From Planctomycetaceae bacterium (GTDB taxonomy: Bacteria > Planctomycetota > Planctomycetia > Planctomycetales > Planctomycetaceae), in assembly GCA_041745595.1 (NCBI GenBank), contig JBGTIR010000065.1, positions 1-41,023 of the forward strand: 41,023 nt of DNA, written 5' to 3'. A model generated the notes under the pieces. The model saw only the letters and a list, made by a program, of their open reading frames with translations. It had not been told where the DNA came from and did not search any database. Both the position numbers and the translations under genes were made by a program. Positions 7,992 through 19,468 of this stretch are shown piece after piece (the stretch's first letter is position 1; every line of letters starts with the position of its first letter).

Positions 7992-8135
7992 CGCCCGAAT
8001 CTTCCCATGATACCCATCAGCGACAGTTGATGCAAATCCTGATTGCGTCGAGGGTATCGCAGGGTGTACGTTGAAGTTTCGTGTATGGCGCAGCGGCTCC
8101 GATAAAGGATGCTACTCGGCAGGACATGTCCGCTT

Positions 8136-8726
8136 ATGGACGAAACTTCGCTCAGTTTGCTCGCCCGTGTTCGCCAAACCACCGATTCGACATCGTGGGA
8201 GCGACTGGTTGATTTGTACGCGCCGCTGATGCGGGATTGGCTGCGGACATACGGCGTGCAAGATGCCGATGCCGAGGACTTGATTCAGGAGGTGTTGACC
8301 GTCGTCGCTCGGGAAATTGCTCATTTCGATCACAATCAGCGGTCGGGAGCATTTCGTAATTGGTTACGAGCAACGCTCGTTCACCGCTTGCGGCATTTTT
8401 GGCGGTCAAACAGCCACAGGATGGTTGCCGCAGGGGGCACCAGCGTGCTGGAACAACTCAACCAGCTTGAGGACGAAACCAGCCAGCTCAGCCGCGTCTG
8501 GAACGAGCAACACGATCGCGAAGTGATCGCGCGGCTCGTCGAAATCGTGAGGCCGACATTCCTCCCCAAGACTTGGGAGGCATTTCATCGGCAAATGTTC
8601 GAGGGCCATCCCCCCGAACAGGTGGCCGTGGAGCTTGGGATGCCGCTCGGTTCGGTTTATATGGCCCGTCACCGGGTGCTCAACGCCCTGCGCCGGGAAG
8701 CGGCAGGGTTGATCGACTCGCCGTAA
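8136..8726 (+). CDS. ECF-type RNA polymerase sigma factor (sigma-70 family)
   Basis: Sigma-70 region 2 (DLIQEVLTVVAREIAHFD...FRNWL) and region 4 (PEQVAVELGMPLGSVYMARHRVLNALRRE). The start is taken at ATG 8136 (MDETSLSLLARV, the usual ECF N-terminus) with an AGGA 12 nt upstream; an alternative ATG lies at 8109. Confidence 0.85.
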   Translation: MDETSLSLLARVRQTTDSTSWERLVDLYAPLMRDWLRTYGVQDADAEDLIQEVLTVVAREIAHFDHNQRSGAFRNWLRATLVHRLRHFWRSNSHRMVAAGGTSVLEQLNQLEDETSQLSRVWNEQHDREVIARLVEIVRPTFLPKTWEAFHRQMFEGHPPEQVAVELGMPLGSVYMARHRVLNALRREAAGLIDSP

Positions 8727-8843
8727 CATGGCGGCGGACGGAAATTTGGAGTTAATTTCCGCAGCCGGCGTGAGGAATCCGCGGTTGCTGCACTCTCTCT
8801 TTGTGTGTAGCCGCCACTCGCCTCTCCGAATCGAGATCGACCC

Positions 8844-10838
8844 ATGACCGACGAATCCGCAGCACATCCGAAAAGCGATCAGCTTGTAGCGTTCGGACTG
8901 GGAAAACTCGATCCGGACAAGGCCACTGAGATCGCGGAACACCTGGACCAGTGTCGCGAATGTGCAGAAACCATAGTCAGTTTGCAGGACGATACGTTCA
9001 TGGGGCTGGTCCGCCAATCGCCGGCGCCACCTCTCTTCCCCGCTGGCAGCGAGGATTCGCCGCCCCCAGTCGAGCAACCAGAGCATCCTCTAGCCACGTT
9101 GGTCGTCGCTTCCGGCGAGACGGAAACAGGAAGCACGCCGGTCGAGTTGCCGCGCGAATTGCGTGAGCATCCGCGGTACGAAGTCGCGGAGTTGATCGGG
9201 CGCGGGGGAATGGGCGATGTGTATAAAGCACAGCACAAGCTGATGAATCGGCCGGTGGCGCTGAAGGTCATCAAGCCGGAACTGGTTCAGAACGAATCCG
9301 CCGTGCGCCGCTTTCACCGCGAGGTGCAAGCCGCCGCGCGGCTGCATCACGGAAACATCGTCGCCGCCTACGACGCCGAGCAGGCGGGCCATCTGCACTT
9401 CCTGGTGATGGAGTTCGTGGACGGAGTGGATCTCGACCAGGTGGTCCGGCAGCGCGGCGCGCTGCCGGTCGAACTCGCCTGCGACTACATCCGTCAGGCG
9501 GCCGCCGGTTTGCAGCACGCCCACGAGCTGGGCATGGTGCATCGCGACATTAAGCCGCACAACCTGATGGTGACCGCCTCGGGCGAGGTGAAGATTCTCG
9601 ACTTTGGGCTGGCCAGCTTCGTGAGCGAGTTGGCGACCGAGGAACTGATCGATGCGAACGATTCATCAACCCAGGAGCCGGCCGCCCCGCGCCACACGCT
9701 GGAGCAGCTGACGCAAATGGGCACGATGATGGGCACGCCCGACTACATCGCCCCGGAACAGGCCGTCAACGCACACACGGCCGACATTCGCGCCGACATC
9801 TACAGCTTGGGATGCGCGTTCTACACGCTGCTTGCCGGTCGCTCACCGTTCGGACAGGGATCGGTGCTCGATAAGATCAAGGCTCACGCCGAGCAAACCG
9901 CACCGCCACTCGCTGACTTTCGCAACGATGTGCCGGCCGAGGTCGAAGCCATATTACGGAAGATGATCGCCAAGGATCCGGCCGAGCGATTTCAAACTCC
10001 GGCAGAGGTTGTGGCCGCTTTGGCAGCCTGTCGCTCGGTCACGCCGAAGGATTCCGCAATGAGTGGCGGGGGGCGGCGTCCCAGGCGGCTCGTCGGGATG
10101 GCCGGCATGTTCCTGGCCGCAGTCGCTGCGGCCATCATTTTCTACATCCAAACGAACAACGGCGTCGTACGGATCGAAGTCGTTGACGAAAGCCTGCAGG
10201 TGACGCTCAACGGACGGACGATCACGATGAAAGACGGCGACACGCCGCTGACGATCCGCGCCGGCGCTCCCAAGCTCCTCGTCCGCCGCGGCGACTTCTC
10301 CTTTGAGACGGAGAGTTTTCAACTCCGCCGCGGCGACACCATCGCGCTCAGGGTGGAGCTGCTGCCCGGCGAAATCGTCGTGCAGAAAGATGGCCAGCGT
10401 TTCGGGGCGAAGCCGCTCCCCGACGAACAACGCCTTATCCCTTCCATCGCAGATAGCGGGCCGAGCGCCCTAGGGCTGCTATTGCGGGACCGGTCGCGGA
10501 ACCTCCGCCAGATTGGCGGCGCACTCCTCGAATATCAAAAGGCGCACGGCAGTTTCCCTCCTGCTGCAAATTCGCCGGAGGCCTTCGACCCCAATGGCCG
10601 CCCGCACCTGAGCTGGCGGGTCCACCTGCTGCCGTTCCTGGGGCAGCAAAAACTCTACGAAAAGTTCCGCCTCGACCAGCCGTGGGACAGCGAGCACAAT
10701 AAGCCGCTGCTCGCCGAGATGCCCGCCGTTTATGGGCCTGGGCCCGACCCCGCGCGAACGCAGCTCCTCGCCGTCGTCGGCCAGGGTACCGCCTATGAAG
10801 GGCAGGCCGGACTAAAGCTGAGCGACTTACACGACTGA
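8844..10838 (+). CDS. Ser/Thr protein kinase with N-terminal anti-sigma-like zinc finger, one TM helix and a C-terminal DUF1559 (H-X9-DG pilin-like) N-half; ends at an in-frame TGA
   Basis: H-x3-C-x2-C motif (HLDQCRECAE). Hanks kinase motifs: GRGGMGDVYKA, HRDIKPHNLMV, DFGLA, GTPDYIAPE. TM helix LVGMAGMFLAAVAAAIIFYI. DUF1559-like segment LRQIGGALLEYQKAHGSFPP...SWRVHLLPFLGQQKLYEKFRLDQPWDSEHN. The TGA stop falls where the Gly of the DUF1559 DGTSNT motif is expected. Confidence 0.8.
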   Translation: MTDESAAHPKSDQLVAFGLGKLDPDKATEIAEHLDQCRECAETIVSLQDDTFMGLVRQSPAPPLFPAGSEDSPPPVEQPEHPLATLVVASGETETGSTPVELPRELREHPRYEVAELIGRGGMGDVYKAQHKLMNRPVALKVIKPELVQNESAVRRFHREVQAAARLHHGNIVAAYDAEQAGHLHFLVMEFVDGVDLDQVVRQRGALPVELACDYIRQAAAGLQHAHELGMVHRDIKPHNLMVTASGEVKILDFGLASFVSELATEELIDANDSSTQEPAAPRHTLEQLTQMGTMMGTPDYIAPEQAVNAHTADIRADIYSLGCAFYTLLAGRSPFGQGSVLDKIKAHAEQTAPPLADFRNDVPAEVEAILRKMIAKDPAERFQTPAEVVAALAACRSVTPKDSAMSGGGRRPRRLVGMAGMFLAAVAAAIIFYIQTNNGVVRIEVVDESLQVTLNGRTITMKDGDTPLTIRAGAPKLLVRRGDFSFETESFQLRRGDTIALRVELLPGEIVVQKDGQRFGAKPLPDEQRLIPSIADSGPSALGLLLRDRSRNLRQIGGALLEYQKAHGSFPPAANSPEAFDPNGRPHLSWRVHLLPFLGQQKLYEKFRLDQPWDSEHNKPLLAEMPAVYGPGPDPARTQLLAVVGQGTAYEGQAGLKLSDLHD

Positions 10839-13479: not shown

Positions 13480-14577
13480 ATGAAACGACGGGAATTCCTC
13501 CAGGGCGGATTAGCACTGACGCTCGGCAAATCGCTGCTGGCGGCACTGCCCGAGGAGCGTCTCGACAAAGCCGCGGCGGTTCTAGCCGAAGCCGTCCAGA
13601 GTGGGCAAGTCGCCTCGGCCGCGCTGACCGTGGTGCAGCAGGACGTCTCGTTCTCGCGTCATTTCGGAAAGGCTGCTTCCGACGACGCGATGTTTCTGCT
13701 CGGATCGATTTCGAAACCGATCTGCATCACGGCGTTGATGACGCTCTTCGATCGTGGTGAATTTCGACTCGACGATCGCTTGACCAGGTTTCTGCCGAAA
13801 TTTACCGGTGATGGACGAGACCGGGTCACGCTGCGACACTTGCTGACGCATGTCTCCGGGCTGCCGGATCAGTTGCCGGAGAACGAAACGCTGCGAAAAC
13901 GACACGCGGGTCTCGAAGAGTTCGTCGCCGGAGCCGTGCGCACGCCCCTGCACTTTGCGCCCGGTGCTCGATATCAATACTCCAGCATGGGAATCCTGCT
14001 GGCCACGCACGTCGCTGAATTGATCGGCGGAGTCGAGATTCGCGAATTCGTGGAGAAAGCCGTCTTTCAGCCGCTCAAGATGCGGCACTCGGCGCAGGGG
14101 CTGGGACGGTTTCAACTGGTTGATCTGGTGGCTTGTCAAACCGAACGGGCCGCACCCGAATCGGGAGCCGGCGACCCGACGGCGAAGGACTGGGACTGGA
14201 ACAGCGCCTACTGGCGCGGGCTCGGAGCTCCCTGGGGCGGCACGCATTGCTCCGCGCCGGACGTCGCGCGATTCCTGGCGGAATTCCTGCAGCAACGGGG
14301 CGACGTCGTCAAACCGGCAACCGCCAGGTTGATGATCGACAACCAGAACGGCAAAGACCTCACACCGCGAGGCCTGGGCTTCAACGTCGGCGCGACGGCA
14401 GGCAGCCCGGGGTGTTCGCAGAAAACCTTCGGACATACGGGATCGACCGGAACGATCGCCTGGGCGGATCCCGCGACGGAGACGATCTGCGTGGTCTTGA
14501 CGTCGCTCCCAGGACGAGCCGTCCAGCCGCACCCCCGCGAACTGGCCTCGGCGCACGTGGCCTCGCTCGAACGTTGA
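13480..14577 (+). CDS. serine hydrolase, beta-lactamase/transpeptidase-like family (Tat-secreted)
   Basis: Tat signal MKRREFLQGGLALTL. SxxK active-site motif (GSISKP), a Y-x-S/N-like motif (YQYSS) and an HTG-type KTG-equivalent (FGHTGSTG). Length is about 365 aa from ATG 13480. Confidence 0.8.
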   Translation: MKRREFLQGGLALTLGKSLLAALPEERLDKAAAVLAEAVQSGQVASAALTVVQQDVSFSRHFGKAASDDAMFLLGSISKPICITALMTLFDRGEFRLDDRLTRFLPKFTGDGRDRVTLRHLLTHVSGLPDQLPENETLRKRHAGLEEFVAGAVRTPLHFAPGARYQYSSMGILLATHVAELIGGVEIREFVEKAVFQPLKMRHSAQGLGRFQLVDLVACQTERAAPESGAGDPTAKDWDWNSAYWRGLGAPWGGTHCSAPDVARFLAEFLQQRGDVVKPATARLMIDNQNGKDLTPRGLGFNVGATAGSPGCSQKTFGHTGSTGTIAWADPATETICVVLTSLPGRAVQPHPRELASAHVASLER

Positions 14578-15088
14578 TCGGAATGCGTGCCCCGCGGCCG
14601 TTGTCGAACAGACCGCGAGGGCGACATGCACTCCTCCGTCGATAAAGCGATGGGCGATCTTCGCACCGGTTGTGAATCTCCGCGGCGGAGGCCGACTCGG
14701 CGAAATCCGCGGGCCGAATCCCCGGGAGGTGTCGTCACCCATGGCCGGGGTTGAGGCGACTCGCGAAAAAAACTCGACCTGACGGAAATTTCCGCGAACA
14801 TTTTCGAGCCGGCGCGCATCAGTTCTATGACCGGCGATGGCGGTCATCGCCGCCCAATAATCGTGACACGGATGATTTCACTTCAGCGATCCCGAAAATC
14901 ATGACGCTCCGACGGCTCCATCTCAGTTCCAAACGAAGCGATACGGTCCGTATCGCCGCGTACCTCATACGTCTCCAGATCCGGAATTATCGATTCGGAT
15001 CGGCGGGAAGTCTGGAACGGGGCGGCGAGAACTCCCCGTATCCCCTGCGCACGTGACATCGGCCACACGCCTCCGCGAGCTTTCCAAA

Positions 15089-15121
15089 GCCCGGTGTCAC
15101 GCAAAGGACGCCGGGCTTTTT
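15089..15121 (+). terminator. possible intrinsic terminator/insulator hairpin followed by T5, 33 nt upstream of the first tRNA
   Basis: GCCCGG(15089-15094) pairs with CCGGGC(15111-15116), with an inner GTC/GAC pairing, followed by TTTTT 15117-15121. The loop is larger than in a textbook terminator. Confidence 0.3.
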
Positions 15122-15154
15122 CGTTGCGCCGCAAGCGGACGATCAAAACCCAAT

Positions 15155-15226
15155 GGGCTGGTAGCTGAGACGGTTTAGCGCCTGGCTGAAGACCAGGAGA
15201 GAAGGATTCGAGCGCCTTCCAGCCCA
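15155..15226 (+). tRNA. tRNA-Phe (anticodon GAA)
   Basis: Acceptor GGGCTGG/CCAGCCC+A. D stem GCTG/TAGC with a GG-containing loop. Anticodon stem CCTGG/CCAGG, loop CTGAAGA (identical to the E. coli Phe loop). T arm AAGGA-TTCGAGC-GCCTT has one A:G mismatch at 53:61. No encoded CCA. Confidence 0.65.
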
Positions 15227-15273
15227 CTTTCCAAACCAGTGCATGACTGGAGACAGACAGCGTGCGCACACAG

Positions 15274-15346
15274 GGCCCGTTCGACTTCTCGTGAGGTTGC
15301 CGGTCTTTCAAGCCGGCCAGGTTGGGTTCGAATCCCACACGGGTCA
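15274..15346 (+). tRNA. tRNA-Glu (anticodon TTC)
   Basis: Acceptor GGCCCGT/ACGGGTC+A (G2:U71 wobble). Glu-like 3-bp D stem GAC/GTT with a GAGG-containing loop. Anticodon stem CCGGT/GCCGG, loop CTTTCAA. T loop TTCGAAT. Confidence 0.55.
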
Positions 15347-15378
15347 ATCGCCTGTTTCGACGACGGCCATCCCGATTC

Positions 15379-15449
15379 CGCTTGGTGGTGTAACGGAAGC
15401 ACATCGTTCTGATACGGCGAAAGCGGTGGTTCGACTCCACCCCGAGCGA
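15379..15449 (+). tRNA. tRNA-Ile (anticodon GAT)
   Basis: Acceptor CGCTTGG/CCGAGCG+A. D stem GTGT/GCAC, loop AACGGAA. Anticodon stem TCGTT/GGCGA (two G:U pairs), loop CTGATAC. T arm GGTGG-TTCGACT-CCACC. Confidence 0.6.
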
Positions 15450-15511
15450 CTGAGCACAGGAGCAACGCATGGCACAACCGCAGACGGACAAACGCAACCA
15501 CGTCCTCAATC

Positions 15512-15583
15512 GGGGTCGTGGTGTAACGGCAGCACAGCGAGCTTTTACCTCGCCCGGTGGGGGTTCGAATCCCTCCGGCCCCA
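15512..15583 (+). tRNA. tRNA-Lys (anticodon TTT)
   Basis: Acceptor GGGGTCG/CGGCCCC+A. D stem GTGT/GCAC, loop AACGGCA. Anticodon stem GCGAG/CTCGC, loop CTTTTAC. T arm GGGGG-TTCGAAT-CCCTC. Confidence 0.75.
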
Positions 15584-15596
15584 TGGCGAGACACGC

Positions 15597-15669
15597 GGGA
15601 TCCAGGTGTTAGCGGCAGCACACTCGGTTCTTACCCGAGCGGGTGATGGTTCAAGTCCATCGGATCCCA
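15597..15669 (+). tRNA. tRNA-Lys (anticodon CTT)
   Basis: Acceptor GGGATCC/GGATCCC+A. D stem GTGT/GCAC. Anticodon stem CTCGG/CCGAG, loop TTCTTAC. T arm GATGG-TTCAAGT-CCATC. Only 13 nt after the previous tRNA. Confidence 0.75.
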
Positions 15670-15680
15670 CTCAATGTCAA

Positions 15681-15752
15681 GCACTGGTCGTTTCGCGGCC
15701 AAGACTCCGCACCCGTAATGCGGCAACGTGGGTTCGAGTCCCACCCGGTGCT
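15681..15752 (+). tRNA. tRNA-Thr (anticodon CGT), non-canonical C33
   Basis: Acceptor GCACTGG/CCGGTGC+T. D stem GTTT/AGAC, loop CGCGGCCA. Anticodon stem CCGCA/TGCGG, loop CCCGTAA (C at position 33 instead of the invariant U). T arm GTGGG-TTCGAGT-CCCAC. Confidence 0.55.
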
Positions 15753-15788
15753 CTGCACTGTGTTCTTTGACAATTCGACGGATGCAGC

Positions 15789-15859
15789 GCACCCATGACG
15801 TAGCGGCAGCGTACCGTCTCGCCAGGGCGGAGGTGCGGGTTCGACTCCCGCTGGGTGTT
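15789..15859 (+). tRNA. tRNA-Gly (anticodon GCC), non-canonical C33 and G1:U72
   Basis: Acceptor GCACCCA/TGGGTGT+T. D stem ACGT/GCGT, loop AGCGGCA. Anticodon stem CCGTC/GGCGG, loop TCGCCAG. T arm GCGGG-TTCGACT-CCCGC. Confidence 0.5.
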
Positions 15860-15924
15860 CTTCGTTGCGGTCAGCGATCAGCGGTCGGGAATCTTTTCGA
15901 TGGCGGACGGCGCCGAGCAAAACT

Positions 15925-15998
15925 CAGCGTGTGGGATAGTCTGGGAATCCGCGTGCCTCGGGCGCACGAGAGCGTCGGTTCAAATCCGACCACGCTGA
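15925..15998 (+). tRNA. tRNA-Pro (anticodon CGG)
   Basis: C1:G72 first pair, as is typical for bacterial tRNA-Pro (CAGCGTG/CACGCTG+A). D stem GGAT/ATCC. Perfect anticodon stem CGTGC/GCACG, loop CTCGGGC with G37. T arm GTCGG-TTCAAAT-CCGAC. Confidence 0.75.
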
Positions 15999-16010
15999 CT
16001 GAGGATTGTT

Positions 16011-16085
16011 TGCGGCGGATCCCGTGCTGGTACGGGAGGGCGACTGTTAATCGCCTCGGCGCAGGTTCGATTCCTGCCGCCGCAG
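16011..16085 (+). tRNA. tRNA-Asn (anticodon GTT)
   Basis: U1:A72 and discriminator G, as in bacterial tRNA-Asn (TGCGGCG/CGCCGCA+G). D stem TCCC/GGGA. Anticodon stem GGCGA/TCGCC, loop CTGTTAA (identical to the E. coli Asn loop). T arm GCAGG-TTCGATT-CCTGC. Only 12 nt after tRNA-Pro. Confidence 0.75.
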
Positions 16086-16095
16086 CTTGAATCAG

Positions 16096-16178
16096 GGAAG
16101 TCATCCGGCCGGATGAGGAGCCTGTCTCGAAAACAGGTGCGGGTTACACCGTTGTGGGTTCGAGTCCCACGGCTTCCG
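16096..16178 (+). tRNA. tRNA-Ser (anticodon CGA), long variable arm
   Basis: 83 nt. Acceptor GGAAGTC/GGCTTCC+G. Anticodon stem CCTGT/ACAGG, loop CTCGAAA (matches the E. coli Ser loop). About 16-nt variable arm. T arm GTGGG-TTCGAGT-CCCAC. 10 nt after tRNA-Asn. Confidence 0.7.
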
Positions 16179-16199
16179 CTGCTTGTGAACCAGTCTCAG

Positions 16200-16270
16200 G
16201 GGCTCATGGTCCAACAGAAAGACATCGGTCCTGCAAACCGAGGATTCGGGTGCGAGTCCCGATGAGTCCA
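16200..16270 (+). tRNA. tRNA-Ala (anticodon TGC), non-canonical (C33, T-loop TGCGAGT, no GG in D-loop) but with the G3:U70 Ala identity pair
   Basis: Acceptor GGGCTCA/TGAGTCC+A gives G3:U70. Anticodon stem TCGGT/ACCGA, loop CCTGCAA. T arm TCGGG-TGCGAGT-CCCGA. The D arm is short (GTC/GAC) and lacks G18G19. Confidence 0.5.
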
Positions 16271-16285
16271 CTTTCGATGCGAGTC

Positions 16286-16358
16286 GGTCCTGTCGCCCAG
16301 CGGCCAAGGCAGCTTCCTTACAAGAAGCAGATCGGTGGTTCGAGTCCACCCAGGACCA
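16286..16358 (+). tRNA. tRNA-Val (anticodon TAC)
   Basis: Acceptor GGTCCTG/CAGGACC+A. D loop AGCGGCCAA. Anticodon stem GCTTC/GAAGC, loop CTTACAA. T arm GGTGG-TTCGAGT-CCACC. Confidence 0.75.
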
Positions 16359-16444
16359 TTGCGGAATCGACTGTCTGTGTTCGTGATCGGAGACGAGGTT
16401 GAGAACGGATTCACGACGAACAATGGACGACTGACGAAGAACTC

Positions 16445-16519
16445 GTCCTCGCGGAGCAGTCCGGAGTGCTCGCCACCCTGTCACGGTGGAGATCGGGGGT
16501 TCAAATCCCCTCGGGGACG
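16445..16519 (+). tRNA. tRNA-Asp (anticodon GTC)
   Basis: Acceptor GTCCTCG/CGGGGAC+G. Perfect D stem GAGC/GCTC. Anticodon stem CCACC/GGTGG, loop CTGTCAC (identical to the E. coli Asp loop). T arm GGGGG-TTCAAAT-CCCCT. Confidence 0.7.
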
Positions 16520-16620
16520 CTTTTCACAACACGACCCGGTGCGAAATCCGCATAGGCAGCAAACACGCGGGCTGTCGTGATCGGGAAACTCGACCCTCGC
16601 TTGAGTCACTGACAACAGAC

Positions 16621-16702
16621 GCGTCGGCTGGGCATTGGCGAGCCCTCGGGGCCGTAACCCCCGCGCCGCGAGGCTGTGCAGGTTCAACTCCTGCTCGACG
16701 CA
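16621..16702 (+). tRNA. tRNA-Tyr (anticodon GTA), long variable arm, C33
   Basis: 82 nt. Acceptor GCGTCGG/TCGACGC+A. D stem GGGC/GCCC. Anticodon stem CGGGG/CCCCG, loop CCGTAAC. 14-nt variable arm with a GCC/GGC stem. T arm GCAGG-TTCAACT-CCTGC. Confidence 0.6.
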
Positions 16703-16784
16703 CTGGCAAGAGAAAGGCACGTCGCCCACGATCGGAGCTGACTTTCTGACGACGGACGATGTTTCACTTTCTCGCCACAGACGA

Positions 16785-16869
16785 GGCCAAGTGGTGCAAC
16801 CGGTAGACACGCGACGCTCAGAACGTCGTGCCCCTTGCGGGCTTGGGAGTTCGACTCTCCCCTTGGTCA
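16785..16869 (+). tRNA. tRNA-Leu (anticodon CAG), long variable arm
   Basis: 85 nt. Acceptor GGCCAAG/CTTGGTC+A. 3-bp D stem GTG/CAC. Anticodon stem CGACG/CGTCG, loop CTCAGAA. Variable arm with a GCCC/GGGC stem. T arm GGGAG-TTCGACT-CTCCC. Confidence 0.7.
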
Positions 16870-16889
16870 TTTGCCGATTGGAATTTCGA

Positions 16890-16958
16890 CGCGGGTGGGC
16901 CAGTGCCCATTGGAGCCTCATAAGCCTCGATCGCCGGGTGCGACACCCGGACCCGCCA
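16890..16958 (+). tRNA. tRNA-Met/Ile2-like (anticodon CAT), degenerate/non-canonical
   Basis: 69 nt. Six of seven acceptor pairs (CGCGGGT/ACCCGCC+A). Anticodon stem GGAGC/GCCTC with one A:C mismatch, loop CTCATAA. T arm CCGGG-TGCGACA-CCCGG. Compact D arm without GG. It shares the TGCGA T-loop/GG-less D-loop combination with the Ala tRNA. Confidence 0.35.
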
Positions 16959-17049
16959 TTTGGATCGGACCGAGTCCGCAAACTCAGGCAAAGCGATCTC
17001 ATCGCGTAACGGGTGTTTGCAGGTTCGACGCCCGTCTGGGAAGACGCAC

Positions 17050-17137
17050 GGAAGGTAGCCGGATACGGTTGGCCGGGCCGCATTGCTAATGCGGTTCTCC
17101 CGCAAGGGAGATGAGGGTTCGAATCCCTTGCCTTCCG
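17050..17137 (+). tRNA. tRNA-Ser (anticodon GCT), long variable arm
   Basis: 88 nt. Acceptor GGAAGGT/GCCTTCC+G. D stem CCGG/CCGG. Anticodon stem CCGCA/TGCGG, loop TTGCTAA. 18-nt variable arm with a CTCCC/GGGAG stem. T arm GAGGG-TTCGAAT-CCCTT. Confidence 0.7.
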
Positions 17138-17148
17138 CTGGAAAGAAG

Positions 17149-17176
17149 CATTCAGCATTCAGCAGTCAGCGGTCAG
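17149..17176. repeat. imperfect tandem heptamer repeat (CATTCAG)2-CAGTCAG-CGGTCAG in a tRNA spacer
   Basis: Four consecutive 7-nt units seen directly in the sequence between tRNA-Ser(GCT) and tRNA-His. Confidence 0.5.
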
Positions 17177-17227
17177 CCAACAACGGCACGACTGGCCAAC
17201 GACAAAGGACAAAGCGCACCCAATCAC

Positions 17228-17302
17228 GGTGTTCGTGGTGTGGTGGTTTCCGCACGTCGGCTTGTGACGCCGAAGGGAGGGGTTCGATTCCCCTCGGACA
17301 CC
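17228..17302 (+). tRNA. tRNA-His (anticodon GTG) with encoded G-1
   Basis: An extra 5' G (17228) opposite discriminator C73 is the His hallmark. Acceptor GTGTTCG/CGGACAC. D stem GTGT/GCAC. Anticodon stem TCGGC/GCCGA, loop TTGTGAC. T arm AGGGG-TTCGATT-CCCCT. Confidence 0.75.
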
Positions 17303-17376
17303 CATCGCCAGGCGAGCGGGCGGAGACAGGAACGACCTCGTTCGTTTCGCCCTTCCCCTTCGACTGTCTGCTGAAC

Positions 17377-17446
17377 GCGAGCGTGCTCCTGGGAGAGTCA
17401 GCCGTCTCCAAAACTGCTGTATGAGGTTCGAATCCTCACGCTCGTG
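17377..17446 (+). tRNA. tRNA-Trp (anticodon CCA), short D arm, one anticodon-stem mismatch
   Basis: Acceptor GCGAGCG/CGCTCGT+G (G1:U72). Anticodon loop CTCCAAA (identical to the E. coli Trp loop), stem GCCGT/ACTGC with one mismatch. T arm TGAGG-TTCGAAT-CCTCA. 70 nt. Confidence 0.55.
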
Positions 17447-17709
17447 CTTGAGGAGCTCTCTGCCGTCAACGGGCGGCGTTCAGAAAGACTCTCCGATGGC
17501 GGCACGATACCCCGATGCGGTCGCGGGACGAACTCCTCCCCGGTTTCGAACGACCGCCTGTGTGCTTGCATCCGCGACACAGTTCGGCGGGGTACGAAAT
17601 CCTCGTTCCTGGAGTATGAGGGAGAGCATGCAACTCTGCGAAGACGAGCTGCTCTGATCTCTCCAAATTCCGCGAACCTCTCGATCGATTCTCCCGTCTC
17701 TTGTCTTCA

Positions 17710-17726
17710 GACTTCTGACAGAAGTC
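17710..17726. other. perfect 17-bp palindrome GACTTCTG-A-CAGAAGTC (candidate protein-binding site)
   Basis: Seen directly in the 373-nt gap between tRNA-Trp and the degenerate tRNA-like element. A 1-nt loop excludes a simple hairpin, so a dyad-symmetric operator-type site is more likely. Confidence 0.3.
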
Positions 17727-17819
17727 CGTTGAGGTCGTTCGTCCAGCGGCGTGCGAGTCGCCCGGCAGGGTTTGGCGTCGCGCGTTCCGAACATGGAATC
17801 TGACCGGCGACGTCAACCA

Positions 17820-17891
17820 GCTCGGTTCGCTCAATGGTAGAGCACCAGACGATCACTCTGGCTGTTGCGGGTTCGAGTCCCGCACCGACAC
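17820..17891 (+). pseudogene. degenerate tRNA-like element (canonical D and T arms, aberrant acceptor stem and anticodon loop)
   Basis: D arm GCTC-AATGGTA-GAGC and T arm GCGGG-TTCGAGT-CCCGC are canonical. Acceptor GCTCGGT versus ACCGACA pairs at only 5 of 7 positions. Anticodon stem CCAGA/TCTGG, loop CGATCAC (G33, A34). Confidence 0.4.
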
Positions 17892-18346
17892 GTCGGTGAT
17901 GAGCCGACTCCTGGACGCGTGCAAACGCATCCGTCAACGAAGCCCAAAGGAGGCAGAGGTTTGTTCGATCAGCCGTCGTTCGGCGGTGAGCCGCAGAGCC
18001 GGTGGGCGTCAGCTCCCGGACTTCTCGCCGGCCCACGCCGTCGACGGCAGCACGCGGAGACGCCCTGTAGTGCGTCGAGACCGCGAGCGCAGCGGGAAGC
18101 CGGAGAGCGGGCGGGTGGAACGCAACGTCGCGCAGGCACAGCGTGCCGGCGTGCGTTGCCCCGCGCCGCTCAATGACTTTCCACGCGCCCGCGGAAGCGC
18201 ACTCCGCGATCGTCGTGTGTGATCGGCAAATGCTCTGCCTTCGGAGGGCGTTTATCGAAATATGATCGCGGCGATGACGCCGTGTGTATTGCCTCCGCAT
18301 CAGACGGAGGCTGGTTGTCCGCAGCAGGACTCCTGAGAGGTGAGCG

Positions 18347-19468
18347 ATGTTGATGTTCAAGCGTTTCAAAATCCGCAGCTACGAAATGGGACTGCTGTTC
18401 CGGGACGATGAGTTCCGCGGACTGGTCGAGGCCGGCACGTGCTGGTTCTTCGATCCGCTGCACAAGGTCAAGCTCGACGTCGTTTCGCAGCGCGACCCGT
18501 GGCTGATGCACGAGCAGCTCGACTTGATCGTCAAGTCGGGGGCGCTCGAGAACCGCGCCGTCGTGCTGGACCTGAAGGATCACGAGCGGGCCCTGGTCTG
18601 GATCGAAAACCGCTTCAGTCACGTCCTGCCGGCCGGACTGTACGCCTACTGGACGGGTCAGAAGCACGTCCGCGTCGAGGTGATCGACGCCCGCAACGTG
18701 CGGTTCGTTCACGACGAGCTGAAGCTCATCGCCCGTTCGCCGATGGTGCAGCGCGTCCTGGACGTCTGCTCGGTCGAGCGCGATCGCGTCGGCGTCCTGT
18801 TCATTGACGGCCGCTTCGTCGAGACCCTGGCGCCGGGGCTGTATGCCTTCTGGAAGGGACAGTCGGACGCCCGGATCGTCGAGATCGACCTGCGCGAAAC
18901 GATGGTCGACGTCGGCGGTCAGGACATCATGACGGCCGACAAGGTGACGCTGCGGCTCAACGCCGTCGTGACCTACAAGATCGTCGACGCCCGCAAGGCG
19001 GTCAGCCAGACGGACGACGTGCGGCAGGCGCTGTACCGCGAAACGCAGTTGGTGCTGCGCGGCGTGGTCGGCGTCCGGGATCTCGACGTCTTCCTGACGG
19101 AGAAGGATGCCGTGGCGCAGGAGCTCGAAGAGAACGTCCGCCGACGGGCGAACGAGCTGGGTCTGGAAATCGCCTCGGTCGGGATCCGCGACGTGATCCT
19201 GCCGGGTGAAATGAAGGAGCTGATGAACAAGGTCACGGAGGCCAAAAAGGCCGCCGAGGCCAACCTGATCGCCCGCCGCGAGGAGACGGCCGCCATGCGG
19301 TCGCAGGCCAACACGGCCAAACTGCTGGCGGACAATCCGGTCCTGATGCGGCTGCGGGAACTGGAAGTTCTCGAAAAGGTCGCCGCCGCGGGGAAGCTCA
19401 ATATCGTGCTGGGCGAAAAGAACCCGGGCGAGAAGGGGCTGGCCGACAAGGTGGTCAACCTGCTGTAA
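18347..19468 (+). CDS. SPFH/band-7 (stomatin/prohibitin/flotillin/HflK-C) domain protein
   Basis: 373 aa. Conserved SPFH core (GQDIMTADKVTLRLNAVVTYKIVDARKAV...) followed by a charged coiled-coil C-terminus (KKAAEANLIARREETAAMRSQANTAKLLA). GAGAGG RBS before ATG 18347. Confidence 0.85.
   Translation: MLMFKRFKIRSYEMGLLFRDDEFRGLVEAGTCWFFDPLHKVKLDVVSQRDPWLMHEQLDLIVKSGALENRAVVLDLKDHERALVWIENRFSHVLPAGLYAYWTGQKHVRVEVIDARNVRFVHDELKLIARSPMVQRVLDVCSVERDRVGVLFIDGRFVETLAPGLYAFWKGQSDARIVEIDLRETMVDVGGQDIMTADKVTLRLNAVVTYKIVDARKAVSQTDDVRQALYRETQLVLRGVVGVRDLDVFLTEKDAVAQELEENVRRRANELGLEIASVGIRDVILPGEMKELMNKVTEAKKAAEANLIARREETAAMRSQANTAKLLADNPVLMRLRELEVLEKVAAAGKLNIVLGEKNPGEKGLADKVVNLL

What the first reader, a model, noticed from the sequence alone, without database searches (positions are those of the whole stretch)
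15155..17891. Dense same-strand array of about 20 tRNA or tRNA-like genes covering about 17 amino acids
About 2.7 kb carries tRNA-Phe, Glu, Ile, Lys(TTT), Lys(CTT), Thr, Gly, Pro, Asn, Ser(CGA), Ala, Val, Asp, Tyr, Leu, a Met-like CAT species, Ser(GCT), His and Trp, plus a degenerate copy. All are on the + strand, none encodes CCA, and several are only 10-15 nt apart. Class-specific identity elements are intact (G-1 for His, G3:U70 for Ala, C1:G72 for Pro, U1:A72 with G73 for Asn, long variable arms for Ser, Leu and Tyr), which argues these are genuine tRNAs and not random T-arm-like motifs. There is mostly one isoacceptor per amino acid, with Arg, Cys and Gln missing. The locus is embedded between unrelated protein genes and preceded by a lower-GC stretch (about 14750-15060). 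This matches the 'tRNA gene array' type described mainly in Firmicutes, Actinobacteria, cyanobacteria and phages. A Planctomycete-like, high-GC host would be unusual for such an array. It could serve as supplementary decoding capacity, as a horizontally acquired module, or as a reservoir of tRNA-derived RNAs.
Basis: partly seen in the sequence, partly recalled or inferred. Interest (0 to 1): 0.8.

Follow-up and report, generated by a model that had tools for sequence, protein, structure and literature searches.

The report
Reserve tRNA operon with leader switch
This is a real, partly eroded extra set of about 20 transfer-RNA genes that many Planctomycetaceae bacteria carry at the same chromosomal spot, and it seems to be switched on by a small upstream "leader peptide plus terminator" device not described before for tRNA genes.

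Summary
ARAGORN finds 19 same-strand tRNAs at 15155-17891, and a 20th odd CAT species lies at 16890-16958. None encodes CCA.

It is a "long tRNA array" (L-array), a known kind already listed for Planctomycetes in two surveys. It is not a local oddity. Colinear arrays of up to 40 tRNAs sit upstream of the same SPFH gene in dozens of Planctomycetaceae genomes and metagenome contigs. They are eroded to different degrees. The window has lost about half, including an embedded HNH endonuclease gene.

The tRNAs are non-canonical, but their stems are kept by many compensatory changes. The window mostly retained the isoacceptor that reads the commonest codon. It cannot be the housekeeping set.

Three features are new:
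- Every array is preceded by a conserved ECF-type promoter motif, a conserved 32-51 aa leader ORF and a terminator hairpin abutting the first tRNA. The ORF's UGA stop lies inside a sequence complementary to the terminator's 5' strand. This is a candidate ribosome-mediated attenuator.
- The array ends in a conserved tRNA-like element with a hypervariable anticodon loop.
- The locus is conserved across the whole family.

Function and regulation are inferred, not shown.

The parts
14794..14822 (+). ECF-sigma-type promoter-like motif of the leader (-35 GCGAAC 14794-14799, 17-nt spacer, -10-like CATCAG 14817-14822)
   Evidence: 40 of 53 metagenome leaders have (T/G)GCGAACCTT-N16-17-CGTCTAA, 50-80 nt before the leader ATG. 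The window keeps the -35 but has one mismatch in the -10 (CATC instead of CGTC). Assignment to ECF sigma factors rests on the known AAC/CGT consensus and is an inference.
14901..15056 (+). Leader ORF, 51 aa (MTLRRLHLSSKRSDTVRIAAYLIRLQIRNYRFGSAGSLERGGENSPYPLRT), UGA stop at 15054-15056
   Evidence: A conserved in-frame ATG...TGA is present in 10 of 11 genome loci and 82 of 84 unique metagenome leaders. The C-terminus is P-L-R-x-stop. Arg at -2 is invariant in 59/59 while its third base varies. There is no Pfam or NCBIfam match. Codon adaptation falls at the 8th percentile of gene windows.
15053..15062 (+). Candidate antiterminator 5' strand (GTGACATCGG), containing the leader stop codon
   Evidence: It is complementary to the terminator 5' strand at 15091-15100. 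90% of cells are paired in 11 loci against 25-43% when slid. The RNA 15040-15104 folds into this helix at -21.6 kcal/mol. In 98% of 89 leaders the terminator 5' strand pairs here when the 3' strand is left out, against 20% in shuffles. There is little covariation.
15089..15121 (+). Intrinsic-terminator hairpin (GCCCGGTGTCAC...GGACGCCGGGC) plus T-run, 33 nt before tRNA-Phe
   Evidence: Folds at -24.3 kcal/mol, z -5.8. 97% paired in 11 loci. The same hairpin lies 8-60 nt before the first tRNA of the array in about 95 of 120 metagenome matches.
15155..15227 (+). tRNA-Phe (GAA)
   Evidence: ARAGORN. Rfam 53.0 bits. 12 orthologues, 13 stem pairs with compensatory change, 0% broken.
15274..15346 (+). 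tRNA-Glu (TTC)
   Evidence: ARAGORN. Rfam 37.1 bits. 13 orthologues, 10 compensated pairs.
15379..15450 (+). tRNA-Ile (GAT), C1:G72
   Evidence: ARAGORN. Rfam 55.9 bits. 8 orthologues, 8 compensated pairs.
15512..15583 (+). tRNA-Lys (TTT)
   Evidence: ARAGORN. Rfam 60.2 bits. 10 orthologues, 10 compensated pairs.
15597..15670 (+). tRNA-Lys (CTT)
   Evidence: ARAGORN. Rfam 36.8 bits. 8 orthologues, 9 compensated pairs.
15681..15753 (+). tRNA-Thr (CGT)
   Evidence: ARAGORN. Rfam 45.0 bits. Its body is unlike the canonical Thr CGT of L012/L045, which score 68 bits.
15789..15860 (+). tRNA-Gly (GCC)
   Evidence: ARAGORN. Rfam 50.7 bits. 13 orthologues.
15925..15999 (+). tRNA-Pro (CGG), C1:G72
   Evidence: ARAGORN. 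Rfam 58.9 bits. 11 compensated pairs.
16011..16086 (+). tRNA-Asn (GTT), U1:A72, G73, three bases between acceptor and D stem
   Evidence: ARAGORN. Rfam matches only the tRNA-Sec model, 35.8 bits, below threshold. 7 orthologues at 82-91% identity. In relatives a Gln CTG gene has nearly the same body.
16096..16179 (+). tRNA-Ser (CGA), long variable arm
   Evidence: ARAGORN. 8 orthologues, 9 compensated pairs.
16200..16271 (+). tRNA-Ala (TGC), G3:U70
   Evidence: ARAGORN. Rfam 51.9 bits. 12 orthologues.
16286..16358 (+). tRNA-Val (TAC)
   Evidence: ARAGORN. Rfam 60.0 bits. 12 compensated pairs.
16445..16520 (+). tRNA-Asp (GTC)
   Evidence: ARAGORN. Rfam 49.3 bits. About 85% identical to tRNA-Asp of actinophages and mycobacterial plasmid arrays.
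16621..16703 (+). tRNA-Tyr (GTA), long variable arm
   Evidence: ARAGORN. 6 orthologues at 78-88% identity.
16785..16869 (+). tRNA-Leu (CAG), long variable arm
   Evidence: ARAGORN. Rfam 46.2 bits. 13 orthologues.
16890..16958 (+). Odd CAT tRNA ('Met-like'): T loop TGCGACA, weak D arm, one A.C mismatch in the anticodon stem
   Evidence: Found only with ARAGORN -ps80. 84% identical over 67 nt to the conserved CAT member of L076. The same odd type occurs in L010, L019, L021, L036, L057 and L061.
16968..17033 (+). Pseudogene remnant of tRNA-Leu (GAG)
   Evidence: 75-76% identical over 67 nt to Leu GAG of L004 and L020. Not called by ARAGORN or Rfam.
17050..17138 (+). tRNA-Ser (GCT), long variable arm
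   Evidence: ARAGORN. 16 orthologues, 10 compensated pairs.
17229..17303 (+). tRNA-His (GTG) with encoded G-1 (17228)
   Evidence: ARAGORN. Rfam 50.7 bits. The base before the gene is G. 13 orthologues.
17377..17447 (+). tRNA-Trp (CCA), non-canonical
   Evidence: ARAGORN. No Rfam hit. 17 orthologues at 72-85% identity, 6 compensated pairs, 4.5% broken. In relatives an HNH gene lies between His and Trp; here the gap is 73 nt.
17607..17643 (+). Remnant of the 5' half of tRNA-Arg (GCG)
   Evidence: 87-88% identical over 34-38 nt to Arg GCG of L003 and L014.
17820..17891 (+). Terminal tRNA-like element (called Asp ATC): canonical D, anticodon and T arms, G33, open acceptor top, no CCA in the window
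   Evidence: Rfam 45 bits. In an alignment of 54 loci the D, anticodon and T stems are 99-100% paired with covariation. Pair 1:72 forms in only 11 of 49, and the anticodon loop differs in nearly every lineage.
17892..17908 (+). Conserved hairpin after the tRNA-like element (GTCGG-TGATGAG-CCGAC)
   Evidence: 89.5% paired in 54 loci, with 4 of 5 pairs changed on both sides in some sequences.
17909..18346 (+). Conserved non-coding spacer with blocks such as GAAGCCYGAAGGAGGCRGACGTTTG..GATCGGCC and CGCGGAAGCGCACTCCGCG
   Evidence: Alignment of 31 loci. No conserved ORF and no Rfam family. Role unknown.
18347..19468 (+). SPFH/Band 7 gene, the only protein gene constantly linked to the array
   Evidence: Pfam PF01145. 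80 related loci at 67-88% identity. It also follows the array in L084 and L219, which were found through the HNH protein.

Best explanation
The locus is a partly eroded copy of a long, co-directional tRNA operon (an 'L-array') that is ancestral to the family Planctomycetaceae and sits upstream of a tRNA-like element and an SPFH gene. It supplies a second, non-canonical set of tRNAs on top of the dispersed housekeeping set.

In the window 18 cloverleaf tRNAs and one odd CAT tRNA survive. They are mostly the species that read the commonest codon of each amino acid.

The likely mode of action has four steps:
1. Transcription starts at an ECF-type, stress-responsive promoter about 100 nt before a small leader ORF.
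2. While ribosomes translate the leader normally and sit on its UGA stop, they cover the sequence GTGACATCGG. The terminator hairpin just before tRNA-Phe then forms and the array stays off.
3. When ribosomes lag or stall, from shortage or damage of tRNAs, antibiotics or starvation, that sequence pairs with the terminator's 5' strand. RNA polymerase reads through and the whole precursor is made.
4. RNase P and RNase Z cut out the tRNAs, the CCA enzyme finishes them, and they add decoding capacity.

Shown here: the genes, their homology and colinearity across the family, selection on the cloverleaves, the extra (non-housekeeping) status by inference, and the conserved leader ORF, terminator and alternative helix.

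Inferred: transcription as one unit, the attenuation logic, the sigma factor, aminoacylation and use in translation.
For: Genes: ARAGORN finds 19 and Rfam 15.

Family-wide homology: colinear arrays of up to 39-40 tRNAs lie upstream of the SPFH orthologue in genome contigs and in about 95 metagenome contigs.

Selection on structure: every window tRNA has 6-17 orthologues, with 3-13 stem pairs changed on both sides and only 0-7% unpaired cells.

Extra set:
- The window array lacks Arg, Cys, Gln and an initiator.
- Relatives have 0-3 tRNAs at the locus, for example the complete genomes of Planctomicrobium sp. SH664 and Schlesneria sp. DSM 10557.
- Non-array tRNAs in the same loci are canonical and score highest, 61-69 bits against a median near 51.
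- Published tRNA counts in the family fall into 51-55 and 74-77 (PMC10923784, PMC7717036).

Use in decoding: the retained isoacceptors read CTG, CCG, ACG, TCG, GGC, ATC, GAA and AAG, the top codons of the window's genes.

Regulation:
- The terminator abuts the first tRNA, often only 8-9 nt away, leaving no room for a promoter.
- The leader ORF is conserved in 82 of 84 leaders, with selection at the amino-acid level on its end.
- The alternative helix includes the stop codon.
- An ECF-like promoter motif is conserved.

Precedent: the Anabaena L-array is silent and induced by translational stress (PMC8421152).
Against: - There are no expression, processing or charging data.
- The array is eroding in the window: half the members and the HNH gene are lost, two pseudogene remnants remain, and the -10 motif has a mismatch.
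- Several members are structurally odd (Trp, CAT species, Asn; A53.G61 in Phe) and score poorly.
- The antiterminator is supported by conserved complementarity only, with almost no covariation. With the full RNA the terminator is the more stable fold.
- The leader has no run of regulatory codons, and its rare-codon bias is weak (8th percentile).
- The conserved peptide end could mean a different mechanism, such as nascent-peptide arrest or a peptide acting in trans.
- Ala and Val do not follow the top-codon rule.
- The whole genome of the source organism was not available, so the housekeeping set was not seen directly.
Confidence: 0.6

Rival explanations
1. Decaying relic. The array is a non-functional remnant of an old insertion. 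Its tRNAs are pseudogenes on the way out, and the leader and terminator are leftovers.
For: About half of the ancestral members and the HNH gene are gone, and two remnants remain. Rfam scores are low and Trp is not recognised. Many relatives have lost nearly everything. The window's -10 motif has a mismatch.
Against: The remaining genes keep their cloverleaves through many compensatory changes across the family. Which isoacceptors were kept is not random with respect to codon use. Leader ORF, stop codon, terminator and alternative helix are intact in the window. Identity elements are intact.
Confidence: 0.15
2. Back-up against tRNA attack. The divergent tRNA bodies serve to replace or shield housekeeping tRNAs that are cut or inactivated by anticodon nucleases, toxins of toxin-antitoxin systems or phage-encoded tRNases. 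The leader senses the resulting ribosome stalling.
For: The bodies are very unlike the canonical tRNAs of the same anticodon. Full arrays use Arg GCG/TCG/CCG and Ile TAT and almost no A34 anticodons, so they would not need the A34 deaminase or lysidine synthetase. A leader using 17 different amino acids could report loss of many different tRNAs. Phage tRNA sets are known to play this part; this last point is from my own knowledge and was not tested here.
Against: No tRNA-targeting toxin or defence gene is linked to the locus in the window. Nothing here distinguishes this from general supplementary decoding.
Confidence: 0.15
3. Cargo of a prophage or other mobile element recently inserted in this chromosome.
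For: tRNA arrays with HNH endonucleases are typical of phages and plasmids. A homologous HNH (44% identity) sits inside a 27-tRNA array on a Mycolicibacterium plasmid and next to other arrays on viral contigs. One contig with the same array is filed as viral in IMG/VR (L084). Upstream flanking genes differ between genomes.
Against: There is no integrase, no phage or conjugation gene and no direct repeat of the terminal tRNA-like element. GC content is only slightly below the surroundings. The position relative to SPFH is fixed across the family, and tRNA divergence roughly follows SPFH divergence. L084 carries the same SPFH gene, and the other eight L084 ORFs scanned against Pfam showed no phage hallmark.
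Confidence: 0.07
4. Normal housekeeping tRNA set that happens to be clustered in this family.
For: The array is present at the same locus in many relatives, and full versions cover nearly all anticodons.
Against: The window's version lacks Arg, Cys, Gln and an initiator. Complete genomes of relatives have 0-6 tRNAs there. Canonical tRNAs with the same anticodons lie elsewhere. Family members without arrays have 51-55 tRNA genes and those with them about 20 more (PMC10923784, PMC7717036).
Confidence: 0.02

Closest known systems
L-array (trn operon) of Anabaena sp. PCC 7120 and related cyanobacteria (Santamaria-Gomez et al. 2021, PMC8421152; Puerto-Galan and Vioque 2012)
   Same: Both are long same-strand operons of 20-40 supernumerary tRNA genes that are patchy among relatives, and both have an HNH endonuclease gene as neighbour. 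The Anabaena array is silent and induced when translation is impaired. The leader found here would give a similar response.
   Different: In Anabaena control is by 9-nt direct repeats over the -10 box, a putative repressor site. Here there is an ECF-type motif plus leader ORF and terminator. The planctomycete array is chromosomal at a fixed locus across a family, ends in a tRNA-like element, and has a different gene order. Homology of the tRNAs themselves was not tested.
tRNA array units of Mycobacterium and Mycolicibacterium plasmids and chromosomes, and of Bixzunavirus-type actinophages
   Same: High-density arrays with an embedded HNH endonuclease of the same family (44% identity, E 2e-25). 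The tRNA-Asp is about 85% identical.
   Different: Gene order differs. Those arrays use Arg ACG and sit on plasmids or phages. No leader of this type was looked for or seen there.
tRNA array unit as defined by Tran et al. 2016 (PMC4758250); Acidithiobacillus ICE-borne array
   Same: The density criterion is met. Planctomycetes are listed among the phyla with a few such units.
   Different: The window has 19-20 genes, at the edge of the 20-gene threshold. It is not on an integrative conjugative element.
Ribosome-mediated transcription attenuators (trpL, hisL, pheL; antibiotic-responsive leaders of resistance genes found by Term-seq)
   Same: Short leader ORF, intrinsic terminator, and a mutually exclusive upstream helix whose 5' strand is covered by a ribosome at the end of the leader.
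   Different: The regulated genes are tRNAs, not enzymes or resistance proteins. There is no run of codons for one amino acid. The conserved peptide end is P-L-R-x-UGA. It is untested.
tRNA-like RNAs (YrlA/Y RNA tRNA-like domain, mascRNA, viral 3' tRNA-like structures)
   Same: The terminal element keeps D, anticodon and T arms, but its acceptor top is open and its anticodon loop is free to vary.
   Different: Rfam gives only a chance-level YrlA match (18.7 bits, E 2.1). There is no Ro/Rsr gene nearby. The position between a tRNA operon and an SPFH gene has no known counterpart.

Membership tests
tRNA array unit (Tran et al. 2016) | At least 20 tRNA genes in one region | tested here: inconclusive
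   19 at the default ARAGORN threshold, including the tRNA-like last one, and 20 with the low-threshold CAT species. Orthologous arrays have 32-40.
tRNA array unit (Tran et al. 2016) | At least 2 tRNA genes per kb | tested here: met
   19 genes in 2.74 kb, about 7 per kb.
L-array (Santamaria-Gomez et al. 2021) | Long array, all genes in one orientation and close enough to be one operon | tested here: met
   All on the + strand. Gaps are 9-180 nt within the 18 genes. There is no promoter-like site inside.
L-array (Santamaria-Gomez et al. 2021) | Supernumerary: adds to, and does not replace, the housekeeping set | tested here: inconclusive
   Supported indirectly by the missing amino acids, by canonical paralogues in related loci, by array-less complete genomes and by published counts of 51-55 against 74-77. 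The source genome itself could not be scanned.
L-array (Santamaria-Gomez et al. 2021) | Patchy presence among related species | tested here: met
   Among 80 SPFH loci the number of tRNAs ranges from 0 to 39.
L-array (Santamaria-Gomez et al. 2021) | Spread by horizontal transfer | tested here: inconclusive
   The fixed locus and roughly parallel divergence argue for vertical descent with loss. The shared HNH family with plasmid and viral arrays hints at an old mobile origin.
L-array (Santamaria-Gomez et al. 2021) | Linked HNH homing-endonuclease gene | tested here: not met
   No HNH gene in the window. It is present between His and Trp in 12 of 18 larger related arrays, so it has been lost here.
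L-array (Santamaria-Gomez et al. 2021) | Silent in normal growth, induced by translational stress | not testable with these tools
   Needs RNA data.
Ribosome-mediated transcription attenuator | Translated short leader ORF upstream of the regulated genes | tested here: met
   The ORF is conserved in 82 of 84 leaders, with amino-acid-level constraint at its end. Translation itself is not shown.
Ribosome-mediated transcription attenuator | Intrinsic terminator between leader ORF and regulated genes | tested here: met
   Hairpin plus T-run at 15089-15121, z -5.8, conserved.
Ribosome-mediated transcription attenuator | Mutually exclusive antiterminator whose formation depends on ribosome position | tested here: inconclusive
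   Conserved complementarity that includes the stop codon, but almost no covariation and no experiment.
Ribosome-mediated transcription attenuator | Regulatory codons for the sensed amino acid | tested here: not met
   There is no codon run. 17 amino acids are used, with only a weak rare-codon bias. This fits a general sensor of ribosome progress, not a sensor of one amino acid.
ECF sigma-factor-dependent promoter | -35 with AAC and -10 with CGT(C), 16-17 nt apart | tested here: inconclusive
   Met in 40 of 53 related leaders. The window has the -35 but CATC at the -10. The sigma factor is not identified.

The most novel reading that the evidence does not exclude
The conserved leader is a ribosome-progress sensor that gates a reserve tRNA operon. 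It comprises an ECF-type promoter, a 32-51 aa ORF ending P-L-R-x-UGA, an antiterminator that contains the stop codon, and a terminator abutting tRNA-Phe. When ribosomes fall behind RNA polymerase because tRNAs are scarce, damaged or the ribosome is inhibited, the terminator fails and about 20-40 alternative tRNAs are made. This would be the first leader-peptide attenuator known to control tRNA genes. It would give a direct mechanistic answer to how cryptic L-arrays sense 'translational stress'. The terminal tRNA-like element with a free-running anticodon loop may be a further, unknown RNA part of the same unit.
Probability: 0.35. Interest if true: 0.8.

Novelty: new variant of a known kind. 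Interest (0 to 1): 0.6.

Why it matters
Long tRNA arrays are widespread, but only the Anabaena one has a known physiological role. How cells keep 20-40 extra tRNA genes silent and turn them on is largely open.

This locus shows three things:
- Such an array can be an old, family-wide chromosomal feature that erodes gene by gene under selection for the most useful anticodons. It need not be a recent import.
- It comes with a compact, conserved and easily testable control element, in which translation of a leader peptide would decide whether the tRNA operon is transcribed.
- Cultured relatives carry related loci. Schlesneria sp. DSM 10557 and Planctomyces sp. SH-PL14 were seen here. Planctopirus and Schlesneria paludicola are inferred from their tRNA counts and, for S. 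paludicola, from an HNH orthologue. The idea can therefore be tested with standard RNA methods.

Tried and rejected
- **Synteny of flanking genes.** The beta-lactamase-family, WD40 and ThuA-like neighbours are not conserved next to related arrays. Only SPFH is.
- **att-like repeat.** I searched for a partial copy of the terminal tRNA-like element at the upstream edge of the array in 12 loci. Only T-arm matches to other tRNAs were found.
- **Phage and plasmid collections.** 'Near' and 'distant' searches gave only a tRNA-Asp match of 56-68 nt. No colinear array was found.
- **ORFs overlapping the array in the ORF list** (for example 14883-15584 -, 16481-17158 -). These are treated as spurious products of high GC. 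They have no family hits and overlap tRNA genes.
- **A small protein in the 450-nt spacer before SPFH.** The SD-like block followed by TTG does not open a conserved frame.
- **Known RNA families for the leader or spacer.** Rfam gave nothing at E up to 10 except tRNA models and chance-level hits.
- **Sigma-70 promoter scan.** None was found in 14400-18500.
- **Covariation proof for the antiterminator.** Not obtained, because the sequences are too conserved.
- **Which planctomycete the two surveys listed.** Their supplementary tables are not held.
- **Look-up of the Schlesneria paludicola HNH protein.** It failed. Schlesneria sp. DSM 10557 was used instead.
- **Two of my regular-expression scans for the hairpin in array-poor loci.** They were too strict and are not used as evidence, except for L054 and L059.
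- **An early note gave the leader ATG as 14891.** The correct position is 14901.

Full report
**What is there.** ARAGORN finds 19 tRNA genes in the 41-kb window, all on the + strand between 15155 and 17891, and none elsewhere.
- Rfam's tRNA model recognises 15 of them above its gathering score, but with modest scores of 36.8-60.2 bits.
- Asn, Ser CGA, Tyr and Ser GCT match the tRNA-Sec model best, below threshold. Trp is not recognised at all.
- No gene is followed by CCA. Five spacers are only 9-14 nt long.
- The last gene, called 'Asp ATC', has G33 and an open acceptor top.

**Context.** The window is a planctomycete chromosome segment. Its genes carry DUF1501, PSCyt2/PSD1 and DUF1559 domains, together with FTHFS, a Ser/Thr kinase, WD40, an AddAB-like helicase-nuclease pair and others. 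GC content is 61% in the array against about 64% around it. There is no integrase, phage or conjugation gene.

**Relatives.** I used the SPFH/Band 7 protein encoded 455 nt downstream (18347-19468) to fetch related loci from one genome per species. This gave 80 loci, nearly all Planctomycetaceae, at 67-88% identity.
- Many carry a same-strand tRNA array directly upstream of the SPFH gene, with the same gene order as the window.
- That order is Phe-Glu-Pro-Ile-Lys-(Ile TAT)-Lys-Thr-Gly-Pro-Asn-Ser-Gly-Gln-Gln-Ser-Ala-Val-Leu-Leu-Asp-Leu-Tyr-Glu-Leu-Met-Leu-Val-Thr-Ala-Ala-Ser-Arg-Ser-Arg-His-[gap]-Trp-Thr-Arg-Arg-Arg-Cys-[tRNA-like]-SPFH.
- The largest arrays have 39 (L060), 36, 35 and 34 genes.
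- Others keep a handful or only the last element. Examples are the complete genomes of Planctomicrobium sp. SH664 (3 genes) and Schlesneria sp. DSM 10557 (6 genes).
- The window's array is an intermediate stage of erosion. Blast of the orthologous tRNAs finds a Leu GAG pseudogene at 16968-17033 and the 5' half of Arg GCG at 17607-17643 in its larger gaps.
- The upstream neighbours (beta-lactamase family, WD40) and the downstream ThuA-like gene are not conserved in the other loci.

**Are they functional RNAs?** For each window tRNA I aligned the same-anticodon genes of the other arrays and counted pairs on the ARAGORN structure. There are 6-17 orthologues per gene (2 for the CAT species) at 60-99% identity. 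Between 3 and 13 stem pairs per tRNA are changed on both sides in some sequence, and only 0-7% of cells are unpaired. This is the pattern of RNAs kept by selection for the cloverleaf, not of drifting pseudogenes.

**Is it the housekeeping set?** No, for four reasons.
- The window's version lacks Arg, Cys, Gln and an initiator.
- Relatives with complete genomes have almost nothing at the locus.
- The few tRNAs that lie outside the arrays in the fetched loci have ordinary bacterial sequences and top the Rfam ranking at 61-69 bits, against a median near 51 for array members. These are Thr CGT in L012 and L045, and Pro CGG and Met in L063 (all scored), plus Asn, Gln and Leu elsewhere (sequence only). 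The array Thr CGT has a quite different body. These canonical genes also lack CCA, so absence of CCA is the norm in this family.
- Species descriptions report 51-55 tRNA genes for Caulifigura, Maioricimonas, Planctomicrobium piriforme and Planctoellipticum. They report 74-77 for three Planctopirus species and Schlesneria paludicola, and note the gap of 'at least 20' without explaining it (PMC10923784, PMC7717036).

The array explains such a gap, though I could not count tRNAs in those genomes myself.

**Which members were kept.** Codon usage of 14 well-supported genes of the window shows a clear pattern.
- For Leu, Pro, Thr, Ser, Gly, Ile, Glu and Lys, the retained isoacceptor reads the most used codon: CTG, CCG, ACG, TCG, GGC, ATC, GAA and AAG.
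- For Ala and Val the broad-reading U34 species was kept instead.
- With five ancestral Leu species, three each for Pro and Thr and four for Ser, this is unlikely to be chance. I estimate roughly 1 in 100 to 1 in 1000, without correction for relatedness.
- It argues that the tRNAs are used in decoding.

**Known kind.** Two surveys define such clusters. One calls them tRNA array units, with at least 20 genes and at least 2 per kb (PMC4758250). The other calls them L-arrays: long, same-strand, supernumerary, patchy, and often next to an HNH homing endonuclease (PMC8421152). Both list Planctomycetes among the phyla with a few cases, without further analysis. The only functional study shows that the Anabaena array is silent and induced by ribosome-targeting antibiotics through direct repeats in its promoter.

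**The HNH gene.** In the planctomycete arrays the His-Trp gap of 650-990 nt encodes a conserved ~195-aa HNH endonuclease (PF14279, PF01844).
- It has 74-96% identical orthologues in many planctomycetes.
- The window has only 73 nt there and no HNH anywhere.
- The same protein family sits inside a 27-tRNA array on a Mycolicibacterium plasmid (44% identity, E 2e-25) and next to other arrays on viral contigs. This ties the planctomycete arrays to the wider class.
- Apart from that, phage and plasmid collections share only a tRNA-Asp of about 85% identity.

**The leader.** All arrays that start with tRNA-Phe share about 250 nt upstream. Immediately before tRNA-Phe lies a strong hairpin followed by a T-run. 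In the window this is 15089-15121, at -24.3 kcal/mol, z -5.8, 33 nt before the tRNA.

In about 95 of them the hairpin is followed by tRNA-Phe, or by Glu or a later member where Phe is lost, and then by the colinear array of up to 40 genes. Often only 8-9 nt lie between the T-run and the tRNA. There is no room for a promoter, so the array must be transcribed through this hairpin.

Upstream of the hairpin is a small ORF.
- In 82 of 84 unique leaders an in-frame ATG leads to a TGA stop 34-40 nt before the hairpin.
- The usual peptide has 32-33 residues, with a consensus close to M-T-S-L-R-S-S...F-A-G-Q-P-A-N-T-L-P-x-H-P-L-R-L.
- The window has a 51-residue variant (14901-15056) shared with L020, L060, L212 and others.
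- Arg at -2 is invariant in 59 of 59 while its third base varies. Pro at -4 uses all four codons. Third positions vary more overall, so the peptide itself is under selection.

The stop codon lies inside the conserved sequence GTGACATCGG (15053-15062), which is complementary to the 5' strand of the hairpin.
- The helix can form in 90% of cells in 11 loci, against 25-43% when slid.
- It is the predicted fold when the 3' strand is not yet made, at -21.6 kcal/mol.
- It is predicted in 98% of 89 leaders against 20% of shuffles.
- Covariation is nearly absent because the sequences hardly vary, so this rests on conserved complementarity only.

About 50-80 nt before the ATG, 40 of 53 leaders carry (T/G)GCGAACCTT-N16-17-CGTCTAA. 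This has the AAC/CGT architecture of ECF sigma-factor promoters, an assignment from established knowledge that I did not test. The window has GCGAAC at 14794-14799 and CATCAG where CGTC is expected.

No paper in the held library links a tRNA array to a leader peptide or attenuation. Rfam, Pfam and NCBIfam have no family for the RNA or the peptide.

**Proposed mechanism.** This is inferred. A ribosome that translates the leader at normal speed sits on the UGA and covers GTGACATCGG while RNA polymerase makes the hairpin, so transcription stops. A ribosome that lags or stalls earlier leaves that sequence free. It then pairs with the hairpin's 5' strand and polymerase runs on into the array.

The conserved P-L-R-x-UGA end might prolong the ribosome's stay on the stop codon. 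The logic is that of the trp-type attenuator, but it would sense ribosome progress in general. The leader has no codon run, uses 17 different amino acids and has only a weak rare-codon bias. It would produce the behaviour reported for Anabaena by a different device.

**The terminal element.** The window's last 'tRNA' is the most widely conserved part of the locus. It is also present where no array remains, usually about 380-560 nt before the SPFH start (up to several kb in a minority of loci).
- In 54 loci its D, anticodon and T stems are 99-100% paired, with compensatory changes.
- Its body looks like a canonical elongator Met-type tRNA.
- Acceptor pair 1:72 forms in only 11 of 49 and pair 2:71 in 30 of 52.
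- The anticodon loop differs from lineage to lineage: CAT, ATG, CAG, ATT, GAT, TTG, TTA, and loops of 6 or 8 nt.
- Many copies encode a 3' CCA although real tRNAs of these genomes do not.
- It is followed by a covarying hairpin (17892-17908 in the window) and by further conserved non-coding blocks up to the SPFH start. No conserved ORF and no Rfam family are present.
- No copy of it marks the other end of the array, so it is not an obvious attachment-site repeat.

Its role is unknown.

**History.** Mean identity of shared tRNAs roughly follows the nucleotide identity of SPFH, with some discordance. L060 gives 0.89 against 0.79, and L077 gives 0.85 against 0.86. Together with the fixed locus, this favours old vertical inheritance with repeated loss, perhaps with some recombination, over recent transfer.

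**Verdict.** This is a real tRNA array of a known kind. It is ordinary in being supernumerary, non-canonical and HNH-associated. It is more interesting than first thought for three reasons: it is a family-wide, eroding chromosomal locus; its erosion follows codon usage; and it carries a conserved, previously undescribed leader that looks like a ribosome-mediated attenuator for tRNA genes. It also has an unexplained tRNA-like terminal element. Expression, charging and regulation remain to be shown.

Noticed in passing
window 17820-18346; L002-L081, about 380-560 nt before the SPFH start in most loci: A conserved tRNA-like element with intact D, anticodon and T arms. Its acceptor top is open and its anticodon loop is hypervariable. 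In many relatives it encodes a CCA end. It is followed by covarying hairpins and conserved non-coding blocks up to the SPFH gene. It is present even where the array is gone.
   Followed up: partly
L060 7035-7692, L019 1909-2563, L021 8304-8954, L056 7900-8569; L217 4754-5248: A ~195-aa HNH endonuclease sits between tRNA-His and tRNA-Trp in related arrays. It is 74-96% identical across planctomycetes and is kept even in Schlesneria sp. DSM 10557, where the array is nearly gone. A 44%-identical homologue lies inside a mycobacterial plasmid tRNA array. It is absent from the window.
   Followed up: partly
L082 (Planctomyces sp. SH-PL14, CP011270.1) 7416-8591 and 8983-9783: A full-length EF-Tu gene (TIGR00485, 561 bits) and a conserved 266-aa ORF without family lie between tRNAs of a fragmentary array. 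The 266-aa ORF also occurs in L040, L047, L060 and L076. I did not determine whether the EF-Tu is a second copy.
   Followed up: partly
Arrays in L004-L081 (census): Full arrays decode Arg with GCG, TCG, CCG, TCT and CCT (ACG only once) and include Ile TAT. A34 anticodons are almost absent, so the set would not need the A34 deaminase or lysidine synthetase.
   Followed up: partly
L019, L021, L060, L077 and others: Array genes called Leu TAA, TAG, CAA and GAG are only 74-81 nt long and lack the long variable arm. Array Leu CAG (83-85 nt) and non-array Leu genes (85-87 nt) have it.
   Followed up: no
L063 6833-6908, L077 5834-5909 versus Asn genes such as window 16011-16086: The Gln CTG and Asn GTT genes of the arrays share almost the same U1:A72 body. 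This suggests an anticodon switch after duplication.
   Followed up: no
L060 with L026 (MAG JAKFVC01); L021 with L023 (MAG JAWXBB01): The same MAG holds two SPFH loci, one with a full array (39 or 34 tRNAs) and one with only 2-3. This is either a real duplication or two strains binned together.
   Followed up: no
L084 (IMGVR_UViG_3300007072_000340, 94 kb): A contig filed as viral carries the same 36-tRNA array, HNH gene, terminal element and SPFH gene. The other eight ORFs scanned against Pfam showed no phage hallmark. It is possibly a chromosomal fragment misfiled because of its tRNAs.
   Followed up: partly
L054 8837-8866, L059 8926-8956: The leader hairpin persists in loci where the array is lost (Maioricimonas sp. 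JC845) or reduced to four genes.
   Followed up: no
window 8109-10838: An ECF-type sigma factor gene (Sigma70_r2) is followed by a Ser/Thr kinase with an N-terminal zf-HC2 anti-sigma-like motif and a DUF1559 segment. A link to the ECF-like promoter of the array leader was not examined.
   Followed up: no
window 28006-34040 (- strand): A pair of large genes with UvrD helicase plus PD-(D/E)XK nuclease domains, resembling an AddAB-type helicase-nuclease. Their ORFs overlap by about 300 nt in the mechanical ORF list, so the start of one is probably further in.
   Followed up: no
window 15155-15227: tRNA-Phe has A53.G61 in place of the nearly universal G53:C61 pair closing the T loop. Several other members also depart from canonical tertiary positions.
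   Followed up: no
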